Part shown: positions 28,821 to 62,926 of the stretch, piece after piece | How the letters are laid out: every line of letters starts with the position of its first letter | Position numbering within the stretch: position 1 is the stretch's first letter | Source: Tricharina praecox | Taxonomy: Eukaryota | Length of the DNA: 64,000 nucleotides | NCBI RefSeq assembly: GCF_024521635.1 | Contig: NW_026250434.1 | Coordinates: 186,001 to 250,000, forward strand | Reading direction: 5' to 3' | Program-made: the position numbers and the translations under genes | The notes under the pieces: model-generated | The model's database searches: none | What the model saw: only the letters and a program-made list of their open reading frames with translations | What the model was told of the DNA's origin: nothing

Positions 28821-30310
28821 ACCTGTAGCTTGGCTTCGTGTCTAGGCTAGTCGACCTCGTGGGACCGGAACGGGCCACTGAACGGAACGAACAAGTACCT
28901 CATGTACGTATCTACAGCAATCCCAAAGACAACATACCGCAGTAGGAACGCAAGCACATCTCGAAGGTTCTCGTAGTCAATGCCGCACAACTGACAAAGC
29001 GGCGGAGCACACTTGAATACGGATACTTGCTTATGCATGGGCGGTGGCTTGCCAGCGTGGCTATGTAGGCATGGCTCGGTATCAAGCATGGGTAGCTAGC
29101 ATAAGCTTCTTTTGACTACATACCTCGTACGTGTACCATCCCGAGCCGAAATACCTACTTACCTAGGTAGAGTACAAAGTACCTTTATAGGTAACTATCC
29201 GGTAAATCCACGGCGGGGCCGCCACATAGTATGTACGAGACACGACGCACTCGATATACCTACCTATGTACGTCCGAAATCTGAAGGTCATCTCGCAGAT
29301 GTGGAAAGAACAGTCGATAGGAGAGGGTAGGTATCTGCTACTATTGAAGGAACTCCGCAGAACCACTGCCTTCCACGTGACAACTAAACGAGTGATACCG
29401 TAGGTAATAAGACATGCTCCCGAGAACGGAAAGGTAACTCGCGCGAGCGGTATGTGCGGAAACTGGGCACATGCCTAGTCGGAAGCTCCGGAAGCACTTC
29501 ATGTGCCCGATAGCTGCTCGGCAGCTGGTATCGAATTCTCGCTACTACCTACCTAGATGCGGCACAACAGCACTGCGCTAGTTACGCAGCGGGAATGCGT
29601 CACTGAGGTATCACTCGCTCCACGGAGCGTCCCCTCATTTTCGATGCTTATTTTCAATAGATTGGGTGGTGATGTCCGAGCTAGACGGGAATATAAAAAG
29701 CCAAGAGGGTGCGAGAGGACGCCAATTCGGAGCGTTGACTGGTGTGTGCTTTAAGTGGGTTCCTGGGGGAGGCGGTTGTGTAGGAGTGATGATCACGAAA
29801 GTTGAGATATATGTTGTCGTCGTTGGGATCAGTGGGATCTCTGGCTCAGTGTGGCATCCCATCTCCCACGCTTCCGCCTAGGCTCGGTTACACCTTTCAC
29901 CATTTCCCCAACCAATCCGCTAACGGTTCGGTCCATCGGCGAGTGATAACTTATGTATGTATCCGAAGGGGGTGGAGGAAGAGGGCAGCTGGCCGCAATG
30001 TGCCGAACTCAGACCTGGAGTAAATAAGATACGTAGGTACATACTGGATGCCGCGACCTACATACATAGGGTCGAATGTGTTATGTTGAAACAAAACCAA
30101 AAAAAACACCAGCTGTGAGTGAGCAAAGGACCCCTCGGACAGTGCACAAGGCGACATCGTCGGGACCGAAAGACAGCCAGAAGATCACGTTACTATCGGG
30201 AGCAGCCAAGCAACTACCGAAGGGCAAGACAAAAGCACAGACCTTAACTGGAGTAGCCCTAAGCCCTAGTAGCGGCAAGAGCCCGACGAGGCTAGTGCCC
30301 CTCCAACAAC

Positions 30311-30318
30311 TATATAAA
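30311..30318 (+). promoter_or_regulatory. TATA box of U2 snRNA copy 1
   Basis: TATATAAA about 40 bp upstream of the inferred U2 5' end. Confidence 0.7.
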
Positions 30319-30353
30319 GCCCCGTTCCGCCCCTCTCCTGTTCTTTTCTCTTT

Positions 30354-30607
30354 AGCTCTCTTTGGTATGTCATCTCTACCCCCAACATTCAACATCAGCG
30401 AATATCCCGCTAACAATTTCCCTTCTACAGCCTTTTGGCTTAGATCAAGTGTAGTATCTGTTCTTTTCAGTTTAATATCTGAAATCCGATAACATATCGG
30501 TTCTAATATTAATCTTATTTTTGAATGTTGCGGAGCTGGCCGCTGTGCTTGCGCATGTCGCCTCCCACTGTGTCACTGGTATTACACTGCCTCCAGTTGA
30601 TGCGAAC
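30354..30607 (+). ncRNA. U2 snRNA: U2 spliceosomal snRNA, copy 1, with a 66-nt intron (exon 1 ~30354-30364, intron 30365-30430, exon 2 30431-~30607)
   Basis: Spliced sequence AGCTCTCTTTG|CCTTTTGGCTTAGATCAAGTGTAGTATCTGTTCTTTTCAGTTTAATATCTGAAA is the conserved fungal U2 5' domain. Branch-pairing GTAGTA at 30451-30456, stem IIa/IIb, Sm site ATTTTTG at 30517-30523, SLIII with GCTTG loop, SLIV CTGGTATTACACTGCCTCCAG. Mature length about 190 nt; ends approximate. Confidence 0.95.
30365..30430 (+). other. Spliceosomal intron inside U2 snRNA copy 1
   Basis: GTATGT donor, GCTAAC branch (30409-30414), pyrimidine tract TTTCCCTTCT, CAG acceptor. Removal restores the U2 consensus exactly. Confidence 0.9.
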
Positions 30608-33016
30608 AAACATACAAACTGCGTCTGCGTCTTTCATTGTTGCTCTGGCTGTATGCGAGAGGACGAGGAAAGATCTTGGCGGATTGAACATGTGCGCATG
30701 TCATGTCATGTCACAACAATAACATAACATGGAGAAGCTGAGAGTGCTCTCACGTCTCCCTCCAGCAGCAGCACCATCTGATAGGTATCCGATCTTGAAG
30801 AAATGAAGGCGAGGACTGCGGCGGCGTACTTTTTATCCTCTTCGCTGTCCACCGCTGAGATCACTGGCACGAAAAGAGAACACGTGCTACGTTGAAACTT
30901 GAAAGAGTGATGCTTGCTAGACACATATGATAGTTCGACTTAGAAATTTCAGCAAGTGGCATTCTGTCAGTCGCATGCAGTCCGAGGCAGCAAAATTCTG
31001 GGACGGACTGAACTCATACCGTCCTCCAATTTTATGGACTGAACTGGACTGATGCAGTCAGTCTACCTAGTCCTGACCGCCGTCCTGACTGGACTACCTA
31101 TCGGAAGCACTGGGCGACGGTGACGGATGTCGTCGCATTCTCTGTCTGAGGCTACGTCTCTTTCTCTAGCTAGTACACGAGCTCGTTTGCTTTGTAAGCA
31201 ATCTGCTTTCTCGTCTTTGTCATGTCATCTACATCAATCAAGTCAAGTTCTTCTCACAGTTTCAATAGGTGATGTCGGGTACTGCCGAGTGACCGCTCAT
31301 GCCGGAAGTGCGGAGGATGAGTCTGACGATGTGTACTACGAAGTTACAAATGCTCATTTTATCTATTCTACAAGGTGTTGCCCGCTCTTACGGTATCCGT
31401 CAAAGGCCAGCAAACTCCATTGCTCCTGAGATGTACCGGCTTTAAGTGATACAATCACTGTCGCTTTGCAATGTATGAATCCTGCGAAACAATTCCCGTC
31501 AAAAGAATTTAGATCTTCACGGAACCACCGTTACCACTTTATTGAACTTCCATTGCCCAAGTGAGTGATCGATACTCACTTTGTACCACTGCCGCATGTA
31601 CCACTACCGGAAACCCCTCGGTCCCCCCGGCCCCCCCGGTCCCAGTGAGCTTACCGGTGATCTACTCTCCCGTTACGGCCGGCGAGCCGCGAGCGCCGAC
31701 CGGGGTCTGGGTACAGTACTCTACCGGTACTCTGGAGTAACCGAGCACCATCCCAGCACGCTGTTTCCCGCCGATGCGGGGGATAACTACCGGTACTATA
31801 CTGACCGGGGGCAGAATTTTGCAGCCAGCGACCGCTGACCGCCGACCGCAATGCCATCCCAATGATCCCATCACTCCGATCAGCTCATCACTCCGATCGG
31901 CACACCGGCGCCGGCCCGCCACCGTTGCGTGACAACGCCCCGAGCTGACTGCGTCCCGAGCCAAACAGCGACCGCCGTCGTCCGCAGATATACCCTACAC
32001 ACGGTACTCCACTCTCCGTCGTGGCGACCCAACGATCCCTCCCAGCGACCTGACGAGGCAGCTCCAGCCTCCAACCTCCACGCATCGATCCTCCCCGTAC
32101 CCGTACCCGTACCCCAGTTCCAGCCTCAACCCACCTGCCACACTCCACTCCACACTCCACTCCACACCCCAGACTCCCAGAGTCCACGGGCCCAGAGTGC
32201 ACTTACATAACCCTGGTGGAGTGAGTAACTAAGCGCCTCAATGCTCATGAACGCCGACTCCCCCCCCCCTCCCCCTCCAGACTCCAGTGTCCACCCCCCT
32301 CCGCCCCCGACATAAATTTCACCGCTAAAAAATGCGATGCGGCATGTGATGCTCGTTTCGTATGTAACATACTAGTACTCTGGGGTTGCAGTCTTGCAGA
32401 ACCTCGATACATACCGTATTCTCCCCCCGAGTCCCCGTTCCATACCCGCCTCCGCGGAAATCCTCCTCAACCGCGAGCATCATCCCATTTCAACCGCCGG
32501 TGCACCGTTCCATTGCGCACGTGGACGCGTACAGAGCACAAAGTATTACCTACCAATGTAGGCAAGTAATTATTGCCCAGATTGAAGCACCATTGCACAA
32601 GAAGACGCCATAGTGATGATGATGATGATGATGAGCAGGCAGATCGCCCATCCCCTCAAATCGTGATGTAAACCATCATATGTATGCTATGTACTAGTAC
32701 AGAAGAAAGAAAAAAAATCGGAACCCCATGATGCGCCTGTTGCCTGTCCTATCCTGTCCGCCTGCCGGTACGGTATGTAACAAAGGAAATCGTAGCTAGC
32801 AAGGAAAAGAAGAAAAGAAAAGAAATCCCGTTCGCTTATGGTAAAGTGCACAGGAAGATGAAGAAAGAGAAGAAAGAAAAGGGAAAGAAAAGAAAAATGT
32901 CAATCATGTTAACGCCTTGTTGCCCCTGCCCCAGTGCCCCTGCCCCCGCTAACTACGCCAGCCAATGCACCCGATGGGAAAAAAAACGTCCGGACATGGA
33001 ATTCAGAAGGAAAGAA

Positions 33017-33027
33017 ACAGAGAGAGA

Positions 33028-33092
<65 letters not shown>
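33017..33092. repeat. (AG)n microsatellite just downstream of the arrestin stop codon
   Basis: Visible dinucleotide run with two AT interruptions. Confidence 0.95.
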
Positions 33093-33093
<1 letters not shown>

Positions 33094-33111
33094 CCCCATA
33101 TGAGCAGCTCA

Positions 33112-34326
33112 TTAGACGCCGTTGAGCATCTGCGCGAGCGGCGGAGGAATGGCGGCGTATGAGAACGAGGTGCGCGAGTCGGGAATGCCGTAGCTGGGGG
33201 GTGCGGCCGGGACGTTCTCGTACATTGGCGGGGCCTCTTCGTCCCAGCTGATGCCGAGACCGCTGCGCGCCGTGACCACAAGCTTGAACTGCATCCTGAG
33301 GACTCTCGCGGCACCGGTCGGGGTGACCAGTCTGCTCGGTCCGGCGGGCTTGTGTTCCTCGGCCACGATCATCTCAACGACCAAGATGTGCTCCACCGTC
33401 GAGCCATTGGCGGCGTCGAGCTGGCACGCGGCCTTGGTGTGTGCTGGAATTCCCGCCATGATCTCGAGCTCGATCTTGCCGTCGGCCGACTCGAAATCCG
33501 ACTTCCAGCCGGTCTTGATATCGCCGAAGCCGACCGTCCGGATGTCCTCGTGGGCCACGCCCTTGCCGGCACCACCGAGCTTAGCGCTGTGGTATTTGCA
33601 CGCCGGGGACACCGCCTTTGAGTTCTCGTCGATCCGCCAGTTGACCTTGCGCAGGCGCCATCGCGTGTTCTTAGCCTTGTTAAGAATGCCGTCGAGCCGC
33701 ACGTCGATGGCGAAGTCGCTGCCGGTGTGGACAACCGAGGGGAGCTTGAGGGTTGCCGAGAGGGTGGTCGGTGGGAAGACGCGGACCGAGTGGCGGTCGG
33801 GACCTGGCAGGATCGAGCGCTCGACTGTGATGGATTTCTTGAACTGGACTTCGTCACCGTCGGCGGCGATGGCACGGGCCACCAACGTGTAGCTTATCCT
33901 CGAAAGAGCGTTGTCATTAGAGGCGGGGAGATGGCCTGGAAGCAGGTAGCTGAACGGATAGCTGAGTAGGAGGTCTCTACGAGCGCTGGCGGTTGTGGTA
34001 GCGGAGATGAACGTCCACCGGTTGATGACATCGACCTGCGTGGCGCAATCCGAGCAGGCGCCATGTACCGGTCTCTTGTTCAACGTCTCGGCCAGCAGCG
34101 TCATGGTGAAGCTCTCCCACTCCTTCCCCTGCTCGTTGTCAATGTGAATCAGACCCGAGAGCAGCGCGCCGCTCGATTCCTTGGGTGGTCCGTAGAGCAC
34201 CAGCGGCGGCGACTCAATCTTCAAGTCGATCGCCGAGTCAGGCGAGCTCTTCAGACTGGACTTGGAGCTCTTTGCTGACTCGGACTTGGATTTCTGCGCG
34301 AACTTGCGCCTCGACAGGCTGGGCAT
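33112..34326 (-). CDS. LDB19: Arrestin-related trafficking adaptor, Ldb19/Art1 family
   Basis: IESPPLVLYGPPKESSGALLSG, YPFSYLLPGHLPAS, RVFPPT, WRLRKVNWRIDE, GWKSDF, PTGAARVLRMQF, GLGISWDEEAPPMY and PPxY motifs. Intronless; probable start MPSLSRRKF at 34326. Confidence 0.9.
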   Translation of the reverse strand: MPSLSRRKFAQKSKSESAKSSKSSLKSSPDSAIDLKIESPPLVLYGPPKESSGALLSGLIHIDNEQGKEWESFTMTLLAETLNKRPVHGACSDCATQVDVINRWTFISATTTASARRDLLLSYPFSYLLPGHLPASNDNALSRISYTLVARAIAADGDEVQFKKSITVERSILPGPDRHSVRVFPPTTLSATLKLPSVVHTGSDFAIDVRLDGILNKAKNTRWRLRKVNWRIDENSKAVSPACKYHSAKLGGAGKGVAHEDIRTVGFGDIKTGWKSDFESADGKIELEIMAGIPAHTKAACQLDAANGSTVEHILVVEMIVAEEHKPAGPSRLVTPTGAARVLRMQFKLVVTARSGLGISWDEEAPPMYENVPAAPPSYGIPDSRTSFSYAAIPPPLAQMLNGV

Positions 34327-34816
34327 GATCATTTCGCCGGATTCGAGGTTGAACACCGAGGTGGTGGAAATGGTTCTGGTCGACTTGATGTGATAGCCGA
34401 TGCGCTTGAATCTAGGGACCGAGATGTAATTGTTGTAGACGGGCATAGGTATCTGGTGGGGGTGGAGGAGTAGGGGGAGAGGGTGGTTGTATATATTGAT
34501 ACTGGGTGGTTGACTAGCTTGAGAAGTGAATTGTGTGATGGCTTCAAGATTGTATTTGGCGGAATGTTGTTGAAAGTTGTTTGGGGAGAGCTAGCTTTAT
34601 GATATCTTCTGTCGTAGGTCGTTTGGTTGCAGACACATAATGCGGCGGCGACGGAATAGTGTTGGTCGAGTGGTGTGTGGATGTGTGTGAGTGAGGTGAG
34701 ATGTTGGCCCCCAGTTGATGAAGTGCGATGCAGGATGTGAGCTGGGCCGAATTGATCGATTGGAGGAGAGGCAGATGGGCAAGCCTCAAAGGTGAGGAGG
34801 ATGCGAGCGAGATTGT

Positions 34817-38166: not shown

Positions 38167-38215
<49 letters not shown>
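38167..38215. repeat. (CT)n microsatellite
   Basis: Visible dinucleotide run. Confidence 0.95.
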
Positions 38216-38217
<2 letters not shown>

Positions 38218-39809
38218 CTCCCGTCCGTACGATCATACTTCCGCACCGCCCATCAACAGTATGTACAACGTACATACAAAGTAGGTACAGATCACACGTC
38301 CTGTTGTGCTATGTTCTCGGGAATACCTACCTATAGGGCACATCTTGTTCTTGTTCTTGTTCTTGTTCTTGCATTCCATCACGAGATGTTTGACTGCATT
38401 TACGCACCTTGCAGGTATACGGTATACCTATCATATAGAGTTGTATTGGAAGGTTATCGGTAGATATTGCTGCGGACGCAATGCACAGATGGCGATGGAA
38501 TTGGTGCGTGCTGGACTGGACGCTCTTCAGCTGGCCGTTTTCTGCGCCTTTCGAATATTGAGATAAGCGTCGATCCGTAACTAGGGTCAGTCTACCGTGA
38601 GAGAGATGGATCGTATTCCGGCGTCACCAACGGGGTGGATATGCTAGTTGTTTACTAAGGTGAGGAAACGACACAAGATGGGGCCAATCCTACCATCGCT
38701 CTTGGTCTCTTTCAGCTGCTTATTCCACCATTCCACCACACGCCAACGGCCGTGACAGCAAGCCACCATCTCATTTGCGGATCTGGAGGAGGAGGAGGAG
38801 GAGGGGGGATGCCTAGCCAGAAGGCGTACCTGCGTAGGTACCGATTGCCCTCCAACATAGTTCCGGAATCCCACCAACCAACCAGATGATCGCAGCCCCC
38901 CCACAAACGTGAGATAAGCTCCTCTGCGTTGTGACGCTGTCGATGCGAGCTGTCGAGATGCGCCTCGTCTCGTCTTGTCTCCGGTTGCGACCGCCGCATT
39001 GGCTGCGTGCAGTGATGCAGTGATCGTTCAGTTGCTCCGAGCAACCGCGTGCATGGCGTGTGTACCACCACCTTCCTCCAAACGAGGGACGAAAGAGGTG
39101 GAAACAAGCCTTCCGGGGGGGTGTGGGGGCCGGGGGAGGGGGACAAACGGGAGCTTGAGAAGATCGTACATGTGGCGCAGCTATGTAGCAGCTACCCTAA
39201 CTAACTAAGGGAGTCGTGGCACGGCAGGCGAGCGGTTTCGATGATCCACCCAGCGCAGCGTTCGAAACCTGGTTTGGTTGGCCGAGGAGAGTGCAGGCGG
39301 CGGGCCAATGATGCCTGCGTGAGGCGATACGACATCGCTCCTGCTGCTGCTGTTCAGCTCAACTCCAACCCAGACTTCCCCGAAACGCAGATGCCATGGG
39401 TACTAGTATCGTACTCTGTGGATCTTCCGCGGTCAACTGTTGCCGGAGTCATGTCTTACTAGGTATATTAATCTAGACAGGTCGGATGCAATTACTGATG
39501 AAACAAAAACAATAATCGGGAAGGTGTACCCGAGCCCAGGCGGAGGCGCGGGAGATGGGGGTGCCAGTGATCTGGACCGTGAACAGGGAAGCGGATGAAA
39601 TGTACGCTGCCGCAGTCCTCGCCTTCATTTCTTCAAGATCGAATACCTACAAGATGGTGCTCGCTACCGGAGACGTGCCCGTACTCTTGGCTTCTCCATA
39701 TTATTGCTGTGATGACATGACATGCGCACATTCACCGCTGACATCTTTCCTCGTCCTCTCGCATACAGCCAGAGCAACAATGAAAGACGCAGACGCAGTT
39801 TGTATGTTT

Positions 39810-40063
39810 GTTCGCATCAACTGGAGGCAGTGTAATACCAGTGACACAGTGGGAGGCGACATGCGCAAGCACAGCGGCCAGCTCCGCAACATTCAAAAAT
39901 AAGATTAATATTAGAACCGATATGTTATCGGATTTCAGATATTAAACTGAAAAGAACAGATACTACACTTGATCTAAGCCAAAAGGCTGTAGAAGGGAAA
40001 TTGTTAGCGGGATATTCGCTGATGTTGAATGTTGGGGGTAGAGATGACATACCAAAGAGAGCT
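39810..40063 (-). ncRNA. U2 snRNA: U2 spliceosomal snRNA, copy 2, with the identical 66-nt intron (39987-40052)
   Basis: Exact reverse complement of copy 1 (position sum 70417), including the TATA box at 40099-40106. Confidence 0.95.
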
Positions 40064-40520
40064 AAAGAGAAAAGAACAGGAGAGGGGCGGAACGGGGCTT
40101 TATATAGTTGTTGGAGGGGCACTAGCCTCGTCGGGCTCTTGCCGCTACTAGGGCTTAGGGCTACTCCAGTTAAGGTCTGTGCTTTTGTCTTGCCCTTCGG
40201 TAGTTGCTTGGCTGCTCCCGATAGTAACGTGATCTTCTGGCTGTCTTTCGGTCCCGACGATGTCGCCTTGTGCACTGTCCGAGGGGTCCTTTGCTCACTC
40301 ACAGCTGGTGTTTTTTTTGGTTTTGTTTCAACATAACACATTCGACCCTATGTATGTAGGTCGCGGCATCCAGTATGTACCTACGTATCTTATTTACTCC
40401 AGGTCTGAGTTCGGCACATTGCGGCCAGCTGCCCTCTTCCTCCACCCCCTTCGGGTACATAGATTATCACTCGCCGATGGACCGAACCGTTAGCGAATTG
40501 GTTGGGGAAATGGTGAAGCA

Positions 40521-60017: not shown

Positions 60018-62926
<2,909 letters not shown>

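What the first reader, a model, noticed from the sequence alone, without database searches (positions are those of the whole stretch)
30354..30607. U2 snRNA gene interrupted by a canonical spliceosomal intron
Seen: the invariant fungal U2 5' sequence CTCTCTTTG|CCTTTTGGCTTAGATCAAGTGTAGTA is split by 66 nt with GTATGT donor, GCTAAC branch, pyrimidine tract and CAG acceptor, like the mRNA introns in this window. TATA box, Sm site and stem-loops II-IV are intact. Established: mRNA-type introns are known in fungal U6 genes (e.g. S. pombe) and were reported in U2 of the basidiomycete Rhodotorula hasegawae, but U2 introns are rare. Inference: this one falls in the stem-loop I / U2-U6 helix II region, 20 nt upstream of the branch-pairing sequence and close to the catalytic core, consistent with gain by reverse splicing. 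U2 would be needed to mature its own precursor. I cannot confirm novelty for ascomycetes without a search; standard annotation would probably report a 5'-truncated U2.
Basis: partly seen in the sequence, partly recalled or inferred. Interest (0 to 1): 0.92.

Follow-up and report, generated by a model that had tools for sequence, protein, structure and literature searches.

The report
U2 snRNA gene with 5' intron
Two identical genes for U2, a core RNA of the splicing machine, in a cup-fungus relative are each split eleven bases from their start by an ordinary intron, and similar hidden introns turn up in many environmental fungal U2 genes.

Summary
The window has two U2 snRNA genes (Rfam RF00004, 150.1 bits each) in a perfectly identical 712-nt inverted repeat. 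In each, an 11-nt first exon (30354-30364) lies about 36 nt after a TATA box. A 66-nt GTATGT...CTAAC...CAG intron (30365-30430) separates it from the rest of U2.

Removing the intron restores the 5' end seen in 33 intronless environmental fungal U2 genes: 0 of 15 mismatches, against 8 of 15 unspliced. The six metagenome rows closest to this U2 (five distinct sequences) all carry an intron at the same position. Exon 1 and the splice signals are invariant while the intron interior has diverged.

Infernal reports a full-length U2, not a truncated one, so the intron is hidden from standard annotation. U2 introns were also not rare in the sample: 25 of 122 matches carry one, at 11 or more positions.

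The organism is a Pezizomycete near Pyronemataceae. I found no paper reporting ascomycete U2 introns.

The parts
30311..30318 (+). TATA box (TATATAAA) of U2 copy 1, 43 nt from its first base to the first base of exon 1
   Evidence: Sequence. TATA-to-AGCTC spacing is the same range in intron-bearing loci (34-62 nt) and in most intronless loci (27-57 nt where the nearest TATA-like motif was picked; three others gave 169-184 nt from a far-upstream motif). The homologous promoter is aligned.
30354..30364 (+). Exon 1 of U2 copy 1 (AGCTCTCTTTG, 11 nt if transcription starts at A30354; the start is not mapped). It is the U2 5' end, the strand expected to form U2/U6 helix II and the 5' side of stem I.
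   Evidence: Invariant in all 6 same-position sequences and identical to the 5' end of intronless loci.
30365..30430 (+). 66-nt spliceosomal-type intron: GTATGT donor, CTAAC branch site (30410-30414, branch A 30413, 17 nt from the 3' end), pyrimidine tract, CAG acceptor
   Evidence: An orthologous intron at the same position in L055, L081, L082, L083 and L089 (=L103), with lengths 51-66 nt.
30431..30612 (+). Exon 2: the rest of U2 (stem-loop I 3' part, GTAGTA 30451-30456, stem-loops IIa/IIb, Sm site 30517-30523, stem-loops III/IV). The mature 3' end is not mapped; the Rfam alignment ends at 30612.
   Evidence: Rfam RF00004 alignment, 150.1 bits.
39805..40106 (-). U2 copy 2 on the minus strand: TATA 40106-40099, exon 1 40063-40053, intron 40052-39987, exon 2 39986-39805. 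Identical to copy 1.
   Evidence: Coordinates mirror copy 1 (the two positions sum to 70417).
29953..30682 (.). Arm 1 of the inverted repeat that carries the U2 gene. Arm 2 is 39735-40464. The arms are identical over 29963-30674; the only 5 mismatches lie at the edges.
   Evidence: I1, 730 nt, 99%; mismatch list. The flanking arms I2-I4 are only 87-95% alike.
30634..30680 (+). Conserved element downstream of U2 (TTTCATTG ... CTCTGGCTG ... GCGAGAGGACGAGGAAAG), a likely 3'-end formation signal. The function is inferred.
   Evidence: Aligned in 5 of the 6 same-position sequences; the sixth, L083, was mis-anchored by the script and is not informative ('flank' block).

Best explanation
These are two functional, RNA polymerase II-type U2 snRNA genes of a Pezizomycete fungus. 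Their primary transcript carries a cap-proximal 66-nt U2-type (GT-AG) intron after about nucleotide 11.

Proposed sequence of events: transcription starts about 36 nt downstream of the TATA box, at or near A30354. The spliceosome, using pre-existing U2 snRNP, removes the intron and joins AGCUCUCUUUG to CCUUUUGGC. This creates the normal fungal U2 5' end: the strand that pairs with the U6 3' region in helix II, plus the 5' side of stem-loop I.

The intron is inherited, not a recent accident. It sits at the same position in every sampled member of this U2 clade.

Shown: the gene anatomy, exact restoration of the conserved 5' end on removal, conservation of position and signals in relatives, and promoter geometry. 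Inferred: transcription, the start site, actual splicing, and that these copies supply the cell's U2.
For: 1. U2 identity. RF00004 scores 150.1 bits against a gathering score of 46 for both copies, with GUAGUA, the Sm site and all stems aligned.

2. Precise restoration. Joining exon 1 and exon 2 gives 0 of 15 mismatches to the 5' consensus of the intronless ascomycete-type loci. The contiguous genomic sequence gives 8 of 15.

3. Not chance. Exon 1 plus GT gives 3 hits against 0.08 expected in the window, and 0 of 100 shuffles reach 3.

4. Orthology. The six metagenome rows with the most similar U2 bodies (84-88% identity over the variable 154 nt; the next best is 80% and intronless) all have an intron at exactly G11|C12. 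With the window they form one clade of 7 rows (SH-aLRT 99). Across the 6 distinct sequences, exon 1, GTA.GT, a CTAAY branch site and CAG are kept. Intron length varies from 51 to 66 nt and mean pairwise identity is 0.58.

5. The last 13 nt or so of the intron vary between relatives, so they are not a conserved U2 5' end.

6. Promoter geometry. The order TATA, CT-rich tract, Y-AGCTC has the same spacing relative to exon 1 in intron-bearing loci (34-62 nt) as it has relative to the U2 5' end in most intronless loci (27-57 nt; three of 39 rows gave 169-184 nt from a far-upstream motif).

7. The intron looks like this genome's mRNA introns. The DNA polymerase delta gene, mapped with a named homologue, has about three short introns with GT.. 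donors, CTRAY-like branch sites and YAG acceptors (lengths of roughly 50-65 nt are my count by eye).

8. Two copies are kept identical over 712 nt inside an older, diverged duplication. This suggests conversion or selection.
Against: There is no RNA evidence at all.

The window's whole genome is not held, so an intronless U2 copy elsewhere cannot be excluded.

The transcription start is unmapped.

Rfam can align a full-length U2 without splicing, so a covariance-model score alone does not discriminate between the readings.

Elsewhere in the sample, intron-bearing and intronless U2 genes are close relatives: L035 and L029 are sisters (SH-aLRT 98) with U2 bodies nearly identical in the alignment. 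Mixed gene sets within one genome are therefore conceivable.

In the precursor the 3' splice site is predicted to pair into a stem-I-like hairpin, which could slow splicing.
Confidence: 0.87

Rival explanations
1. There is no intron. U2 is transcribed from a start inside or near the pyrimidine tract (about 30418-30424) and used unspliced, as in the Rfam alignment. The upstream AGCTCTCTTTG is a relic or a coincidence.
For: Infernal aligns model positions 1-192 to 30418-30612 with a complete stem I (UCU/AGA and AGCC/GGCU) at 150.1 bits. The consensus fold of the precursors keeps that hairpin in 6 of 6 sequences.
Against: The supposed 5' end has 8 of 15 mismatches to the ascomycete-type 5' end, against 0 of 15 after splicing. 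It varies among the five relatives (for example, L081 has no UCU), while the upstream 11-mer plus GTA.GT is invariant. TATA spacing fits exon 1, not the pyrimidine tract. Under this reading the helix II strand would be lost. The chance of the 13-mer is 0.08 per window.
Confidence: 0.04
2. The intron is structurally real, but these two loci are silent or minor copies. An intronless U2 gene elsewhere in the genome supplies most or all U2.
For: The genome is not held, so other copies cannot be counted. In other lineages of the sample, intronless and intron-bearing U2 genes are near-identical in the body (L029/L035; L118 with L095/L114). PMC5855946 section 14 raises mixed paralog sets for U6.
Against: Both copies have an intact TATA box, Sm site and fully conserved core, and are identical over 712 nt. 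All 6 rows (5 distinct sequences) of this U2 clade in the sample have the intron and none lacks it. Splice signals are conserved across relatives whose intron interiors have diverged, as expected only if splicing is under selection.
Confidence: 0.07
3. The insert is a self-splicing or mobile element (group I/II intron or small transposon) rather than a spliceosomal intron.
For: None beyond the fact that it is an insertion in a structural RNA gene.
Against: At 66 nt it is far too short for a group I or group II ribozyme (established knowledge). Rfam found only the two U2 hits in the window. The consensus fold predicts no structure in the insert. Its boundaries are GT..AG with a CTAAC branch site 17 nt from the end. 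Around the U2 genes, one search shows only the large gene-carrying inverted repeat; I saw no short repeats flanking the 66-nt insert, though I did not test this separately.
Confidence: 0.01

Closest known systems
mRNA-type intron in the U2 snRNA gene of Rhodotorula hasegawae (Takahashi et al. 1993, Mol Cell Biol 13:5613). Seen only as a citation in PMC5855946 section 14 and in the PMC2396436 reference list. The paper itself is not held.
   Same: A spliceosomal GT-AG intron inside a Pol II-transcribed U2 gene of a fungus. U2 is needed to splice its own precursor.
   Different: That host is a basidiomycete yeast; this one is a Pezizomycete ascomycete. As far as I recall, the Rhodotorula intron lies next to the branch-site recognition region (recalled, not checked). 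Here it lies after nt 11, in the helix II / stem I strand. Four environmental loci (L044, L087, L105, L118) do have introns in stem-loop IIa, just after the branch-pairing region.
Introns in fungal U6 snRNA genes (S. pombe, Tani and Ohshima 1989; survey by Canzler et al. 2016), as summarised in PMC5855946 section 14. Canzler 2016 is not held.
   Same: Canonical splice signals in a spliceosomal snRNA gene, many positions, lineage-specific presence or absence, and a proposed origin by reverse splicing.
   Different: U6 is transcribed by Pol III, and its introns are said to concentrate near the catalytic core. Here the gene is Pol II-type with a TATA box, and the introns cluster in the first 13 nt, which form helix II rather than the catalytic centre.
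Introns in fungal U3 snoRNA genes (PMC5832005, passages read)
   Same: A capped, independently transcribed, TATA-driven small RNA gene. Introns cluster tightly near the 5' end (5' arm of stem-loop M1) and are present in 'the vast majority' of Pezizomycotina analysed. Neighbouring positions vary, which that paper discusses as intron sliding versus repeated insertion. This is the same pattern I see for U2 positions 5-13.
   Different: It is a different RNA. [quoted passage not shown]

Membership tests
U2 spliceosomal snRNA (Rfam RF00004) | Covariance-model score above the curated gathering threshold, with stem-loops I-IV | tested here: met
   150.1 bits against 46, model positions 1-192, both copies.
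U2 spliceosomal snRNA (Rfam RF00004) | Branch-point recognition sequence GUAGUA and Sm site AUUUUUG | tested here: met
   30451-30456 and 30517-30523, aligned to the invariant model columns.
U2 spliceosomal snRNA (Rfam RF00004) | Lineage-typical 5' end (the strand for U2/U6 helix II) contiguous with stem-loop I | tested here: met
   Met only after removal of 30365-30430: 0 of 15 mismatches spliced, 8 of 15 unspliced, against the 5' end of the intronless ascomycete-type loci. Complementarity to this organism's U6 could not be tested, because there is no U6 in the window and the genome is not held.
U2 spliceosomal snRNA (Rfam RF00004) | Expressed, trimethylguanosine-capped RNA found in snRNPs | not testable with these tools
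U2-type (GT-AG) spliceosomal intron | Donor GTRNGT, branch site CTRAY 10-20 nt from the acceptor, and YAG acceptor | tested here: met
   GTATGT; CTAAC with the branch A 17 nt from the end; CAG. All 20 parsed metagenome 5' introns show the same grammar, with branch sites 10-19 nt from the 3' end, though some donors depart from GTRNGT (GTCAGT, GTTCGT, GTACGC).
U2-type (GT-AG) spliceosomal intron | Size and signals like the host's own mRNA introns | tested here: met
   DNA polymerase delta gene introns mapped with P0004 are short, with GTATGT/GTAGGT/GTTTTT donors (lengths of roughly 50-65 nt are my count by eye).
U2-type (GT-AG) spliceosomal intron | Same position in orthologues, with conserved signals and a diverging interior | tested here: met
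   L055, L081, L082, L083 and L089/L103: exon 1 invariant, introns 51-66 nt, mean pairwise identity 0.58.
U2-type (GT-AG) spliceosomal intron | Spliced junction observed in RNA (and a lariat) | not testable with these tools
   No transcript data for this species were reachable.
mRNA-type introns of snRNA genes (U6 of S. pombe; U1, U2 and U5 of R. hasegawae) | A canonical spliceosomal intron inside a spliceosomal snRNA coding sequence | tested here: met
   See the rows above. The class itself is described in PMC5855946 section 14.
mRNA-type introns of snRNA genes (U6 of S. pombe; U1, U2 and U5 of R. hasegawae) | Origin by reverse splicing into an snRNA region next to the catalytic centre | not testable with these tools
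   The position is in the helix II strand. The clustering at nt 5-13 and in stem-loop IIa is descriptive only.

The most novel reading that the evidence does not exclude
Cap-proximal spliceosomal introns in U2 genes may be a common, ancient and so far unreported feature of filamentous ascomycetes, not a curiosity of one fungus.

In a capped sample of 122 environmental U2 matches, 20 have an intron after nt 5, 6, 7, 8, 9, 10, 11 or 13. One more (L113) lies after about nt 12 of a variant exon, and 4 have one in stem-loop IIa. This compares with 33 intronless ascomycete-type genes.

Whatever their position, 16 of 21 of the 5' introns share a run of four or more C in intron nt 7-32. The shuffled mean is 4.9, and 0 of 2000 shuffles reach 16. 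This hints at one old intron whose boundaries slid and that was repeatedly lost, or at a shared functional element.

Infernal hides all of these introns by reporting full-length hits. If this reading is right, U2 biogenesis in a large share of Pezizomycotina depends on splicing. The positions also give a new data set against which to test the idea that snRNA introns mark the catalytic centre.
Probability: 0.45. Interest if true: 0.75.

Novelty: new member of a known kind. Interest (0 to 1): 0.62.

Why it matters
Introns inside spliceosomal snRNA genes were early evidence that splicing is reversible and that these RNAs sit at the active site. U2 examples rest on a single basidiomycete yeast (PMC5855946 section 14).

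This case adds an ascomycete one at a new position. It has an 11-nt first exon, so the U2 strand that pairs with U6 in helix II is created only by splicing. U2 supply therefore depends on working U2, a self-dependence loop that could couple U2 production to splicing capacity (inference).

There is also a practical consequence. Rfam/Infernal annotation silently gives a wrong 5' end for such genes. Fungal U2 annotations, and any design based on them, may be wrong by 11 or more nucleotides.

The environmental survey suggests the phenomenon is frequent and evolutionarily dynamic. That makes the question of intron gain versus sliding in a 13-nt target testable with named genomes.

Tried and rejected
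1. RNA evidence. The look-up of sequencing runs (kind rna) on 30300-30660 listed 23 runs, none holding more than 0.12 of the sampled words. I did not resend it, so splicing remains unobserved.

2. The window's own genome is not held. I could not count U2 copies or test U6 complementarity.

3. Covariance-model discrimination. The Rfam score cannot separate the spliced from the unspliced reading, because it aligns full length either way. I used mismatch counts to the intronless consensus instead.

4. A conserved RNA structure in the intron. RNAalifold on 6 precursors found none. The only helix is a stem-I-like hairpin that includes the 3' splice site, with 0 compensatory pairs.

5. Extra conservation of the intron interior. 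Mean pairwise identity is 0.58, against 0.50 for the promoter spacer and 0.48 for the 3' flank (the flank figure includes one mis-anchored row, L083). This is not clearly above the flanks, so I make no claim of a functional intronic element from it.

6. Single origin versus many gains. The U2-body tree has 159 columns and only 7 starred branches of 49. Only the position-11 clade is resolved and the other positions are scattered, so the question stays open.

7. Literature. Searches found no report of U2 introns in ascomycetes. Takahashi 1993 and Canzler 2016 are not held. The supplements of PMC2396436, which list snRNA sequences and mark 'i' for introns in Figure 1, were not opened and could bear on novelty.

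8. Earlier notes of this scan held nothing on this or a similar locus.

9. I considered a group I/II intron or a transposon and rejected it (see rivals).

Full report
**What is there.**
The window holds two U2 snRNA genes. Rfam RF00004 matches 30418-30612 (+) and 39805-39999 (-), each at 150.1 bits (gathering score 46) over model positions 1-192.

The sequence, recomputed, shows these features upstream and across the plus-strand hit:
- a TATA box (30311-30318);
- a CT-rich tract;
- AGCTCTCTTTG (30354-30364);
- a 66-nt insert (30365-30430) that starts GTATGT, carries CTAAC with the branch A 17 nt from its end, and ends in a pyrimidine tract plus CAG;
- then CCTTTTGGCTTAGATCAAGTGTAGTA and the rest of U2, with GTAGTA at 30451-30456 and the Sm site at 30517-30523.

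The minus-strand copy is the mirror image. The two copies lie in an inverted repeat, 29953-30682 and 39735-40464, whose only 5 mismatches are at the edges. They are therefore identical over 29963-30674. Neighbouring repeat arms are only 87-95% alike, which points to an older duplication kept uniform around the gene.

**Is it more than chance?**
The 13-mer made of exon 1 plus GT, allowing one mismatch, occurs 3 times in the window. Two of these are the U2 loci. Dinucleotide-preserving shuffles give 0.08 expected.

**Why the covariance model does not settle it.**
Infernal aligns a complete U2 without any splicing. It reads the intron's last bases (pyrimidines plus CAG) as model positions 1-12, including the lower part of stem I.

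It did the same for 20 of 20 environmental U2 loci given to it. Twelve of them have a 5' intron, and three have an internal intron that it simply spans as an insertion.

The intron is invisible to standard annotation, which gives a wrong 5' end.

**Comparative evidence.**
The whole genome is not held. I therefore scanned the metagenome contigs for a 31-nt stretch of exon 2.

The 122 matches sort as follows:

| Class | Matches |
|---|---|
| 5' end of the form ..AGCTCTCTTTGCCTT directly joined to the match, no intron | 33 |
| Canonical intron within the first 13 nt (19 distinct sequences) | 20 |
| Intron in stem-loop IIa (L044, L087, L105, L118) | 4 |
| Intron after a variant exon (L113, judged by eye) | 1 |
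| Probable intron cut by the contig end (L078) | 1 |
| Truncated U2-like fragments | 2 |
| A different 5' end type (TTACCACTCTGGCC) | 41 |
| Other types | 14 |
| Too short upstream to classify | 6 |

For the 20, a parser required AG before exon 2, GT after exon 1, and at most one mismatch of the rejoined 15-mer to the consensus. It placed introns after nt 5, 6, 7, 8, 9, 10, 11 or 13. Lengths are 51-66 nt, donors are of the GTAAGT, GTACGT, GTATGT and GTCAGT kind, and CTRAY branch sites lie 10-19 nt from the 3' end. None of the 56 rows that one search left as 'other' (non-consensus 5' end types; two of them, L113 and L078, I later judged by eye to carry introns) gave such a parse.

**The window's own lineage.**
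The six metagenome rows whose U2 bodies are most like the window's (84-88% over the variable 154 nt) are L055, L082, L081, L089, L103 and L083. L089 and L103 are identical. All have the intron at exactly the window's position. The next best row (80%) is intronless.

In a quick maximum-likelihood tree of 53 U2 bodies, these seven rows form one clade with SH-aLRT 99. The tree uses 159 columns and is poorly resolved elsewhere.

The alignment shows the intronless genes L075, L063, L118 and L038 aligned to the window up to ..AGCTCTCTTT and again from GCCTTTTGG. The six intron-bearing sequences carry the insert exactly between these two points.

Within the six, exon 1, GTA.GT and CAG are invariant and a CTAAY branch site is kept. 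The interior differs in length and has 0.58 mean pairwise identity. The last 13 nt or so of the insert vary, so they are not a conserved RNA 5' end.

Joining exon 1 to exon 2 in the window gives 0 of 15 mismatches to the intronless consensus. The unspliced sequence gives 8 of 15.

The distance from a TATA-like box to AGCTC is 34-62 nt in intron-bearing loci. It is 27-57 nt in most intronless ones; three of the 39 intronless rows gave 169-184 nt because the regex picked a far-upstream motif. Both groups have the same CT-rich leader. The promoter is therefore positioned for exon 1.

**The host and its introns.**
The window encodes Nup192, an Edc3-like protein, Rrp5, the DNA polymerase delta catalytic subunit, an LDB19-type arrestin and an AAA ATPase.

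The polymerase fragment is 84% identical to Wilcoxina mikolae, 83% to Trichophaea hybrida and 82% to Pyronema omphalodes. Identity to other Pezizales is lower, and to other ascomycete classes it is about 72-75%. The fungus is therefore a Pezizomycete close to Pyronemataceae.

Mapping the Wilcoxina protein on the window and reading the gaps shows short mRNA introns with GT.. donors, CTRAY-like branch sites and YAG acceptors. By my count by eye they are roughly 50-65 nt. The U2 insert has the same style.

**Mechanism.**
The best reading is a Pol II transcript with an 11-nt (or slightly longer) first exon, whose intron is removed by the ordinary spliceosome. Splicing creates the U2 5' end.

In yeast that region pairs with U6 nt 93-102 as helix II, which stays formed through catalysis (PMC5855946 section 25).

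Existing U2 snRNP is needed to make new U2. Cells inherit snRNPs, so this is a dependence, not a paradox. Whether it serves regulation is inference.

RNAalifold on the six precursors predicts an unstructured intron. The intron is poor in G: 9% in the window and 14% overall. The fold also predicts a hairpin in which the 3' splice site takes the place of exon 1 in stem I. I attach no function to either feature.

**What is not shown.**
Transcription, the start site and the junction are therefore all inferred.

An intronless copy elsewhere in the genome cannot be excluded. Other lineages in the sample do show near-identical U2 bodies with and without an intron: L035 and L029 are sisters at SH-aLRT 98.

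**Origin.**
Two points temper it.

First, helix II is not the catalytic centre.

Second, fungal U3 snoRNA genes are also capped and TATA-driven, and they show the same tight clustering of introns near the 5' end with slightly varying positions. That pattern is discussed as sliding versus repeated insertion (PMC5832005).

In my sample, 16 of 21 5' introns have a run of four or more C in nt 7-32, whatever their position. The shuffled mean is 4.9, and 0 of 2000 shuffles reach 16. Among 23 unverified intron-like strings elsewhere in the window, 3 have such a run. Relatedness inflates this count, and C-rich tracts also occur just after the TATA box of intronless genes. It is a lead for common ancestry, not proof.

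**Novelty.**
A 2018 review names only Takahashi 1993 (Rhodotorula hasegawae) for U2 introns (PMC5855946 section 14, read whole).

Six full-text searches found no report of U2 introns in ascomycetes. Takahashi 1993 and Canzler 2016 are not held, and I did not open the supplements of PMC2396436.

I file this as a new member of a known kind: mRNA-type introns in snRNA genes. The bolder, partly supported reading is that such U2 introns are common and overlooked in filamentous ascomycetes.

Noticed in passing
L044:301-560(+), L087 (-), L105 (-), L118:301-560(+): Four environmental U2 genes with an intact 5' end carry a canonical intron inside stem-loop IIa. In L044 and L087 it follows ..CAGTTT, with a GTGAGT donor. 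In L105 and L118 it follows ..TTYAG, with GTGAGG and GTACGC donors. All have CTRAC branch sites and YAG acceptors. Infernal spans them as insertions, giving hits of 241-246 nt.
   Followed up: partly
L046 and L074 (minus-strand matches at 301-331): Two contigs hold a normal U2 gene head-to-head, about 275 nt away, with a U2-like fragment. The fragment keeps only about the first 50 nt (5' end, stem I, branch-pairing region) and then continues into an unrelated GC-rich hairpin (GGAGGACC TTCG GCCCTCC). It could be a pseudogene or a small U2-derived RNA.
   Followed up: no
window 30634-30680 (and 39737-39783 on the minus strand); the same block in L055, L081, L082, L089: A conserved block 20-70 nt downstream of U2 (TTTCATTG .. 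CTCTGGCTG .. GCGAGAGGACGAGGAAAG). A shorter TTTCATTG..TCTGGC version follows U2 in other ascomycete-type loci (L027, L110, L113, L029, L035). It is a probable 3'-end formation signal.
   Followed up: partly
window 30290-30299; L075, L063, L118, L038, L081-L083, L089 upstream regions: A motif CACTAGCGC (GGCTAGTGCC in the window) lies about 10-30 nt upstream of the TATA-like box in many of these U2 promoters. It is a candidate snRNA promoter element of filamentous ascomycetes.
   Followed up: no
21 5' introns of the U2 loci (window 30378-30384 in this copy): A run of four or more C occurs within intron nt 7-32 in 16 of 21 U2 5' introns, regardless of intron position. The shuffled mean is 4.9. 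The introns are G-poor (14% G overall).
   Followed up: partly
L035 versus L029: These two U2 genes have bodies that are nearly identical in the alignment, including a compensatory change in stem IIb. One has an intron after nt 8 and the other has none, and their promoters are partly alignable. This is direct evidence that presence or absence of the intron is evolutionarily dynamic.
   Followed up: partly
window 33005-33098 and 38167-38220: Long (GA)n / (TC)n microsatellites in inverted orientation, inside the 9-kb segment between the two U2 copies.
   Followed up: no
L030, upstream of the match: A sequencing-adapter-like string (..GCTCTTCCGATCT) is fused directly to U2 nt ~14 in a public metagenome contig. 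This is an assembly artefact.
   Followed up: no
window 2245-24542 and 33112-34446, 61218-62501: Gene content of an ordinary fungal chromosome arm: Nup192, an Edc3-like protein (FDF plus YjeF_N), Rrp5, the DNA polymerase delta catalytic subunit (about 3 short introns), an LDB19-type arrestin between the two U2 copies, and a Cdc48-like AAA ATPase.
   Followed up: partly
41 loci (for example L004, L033, L060): A second large class of U2 genes matches the same 31-mer. It has the 5' end ..TTACCACTCTGGCC and a TATA box about 30-35 nt upstream, and no 5' introns were parsed in it. Its taxon is not determined.
   Followed up: no
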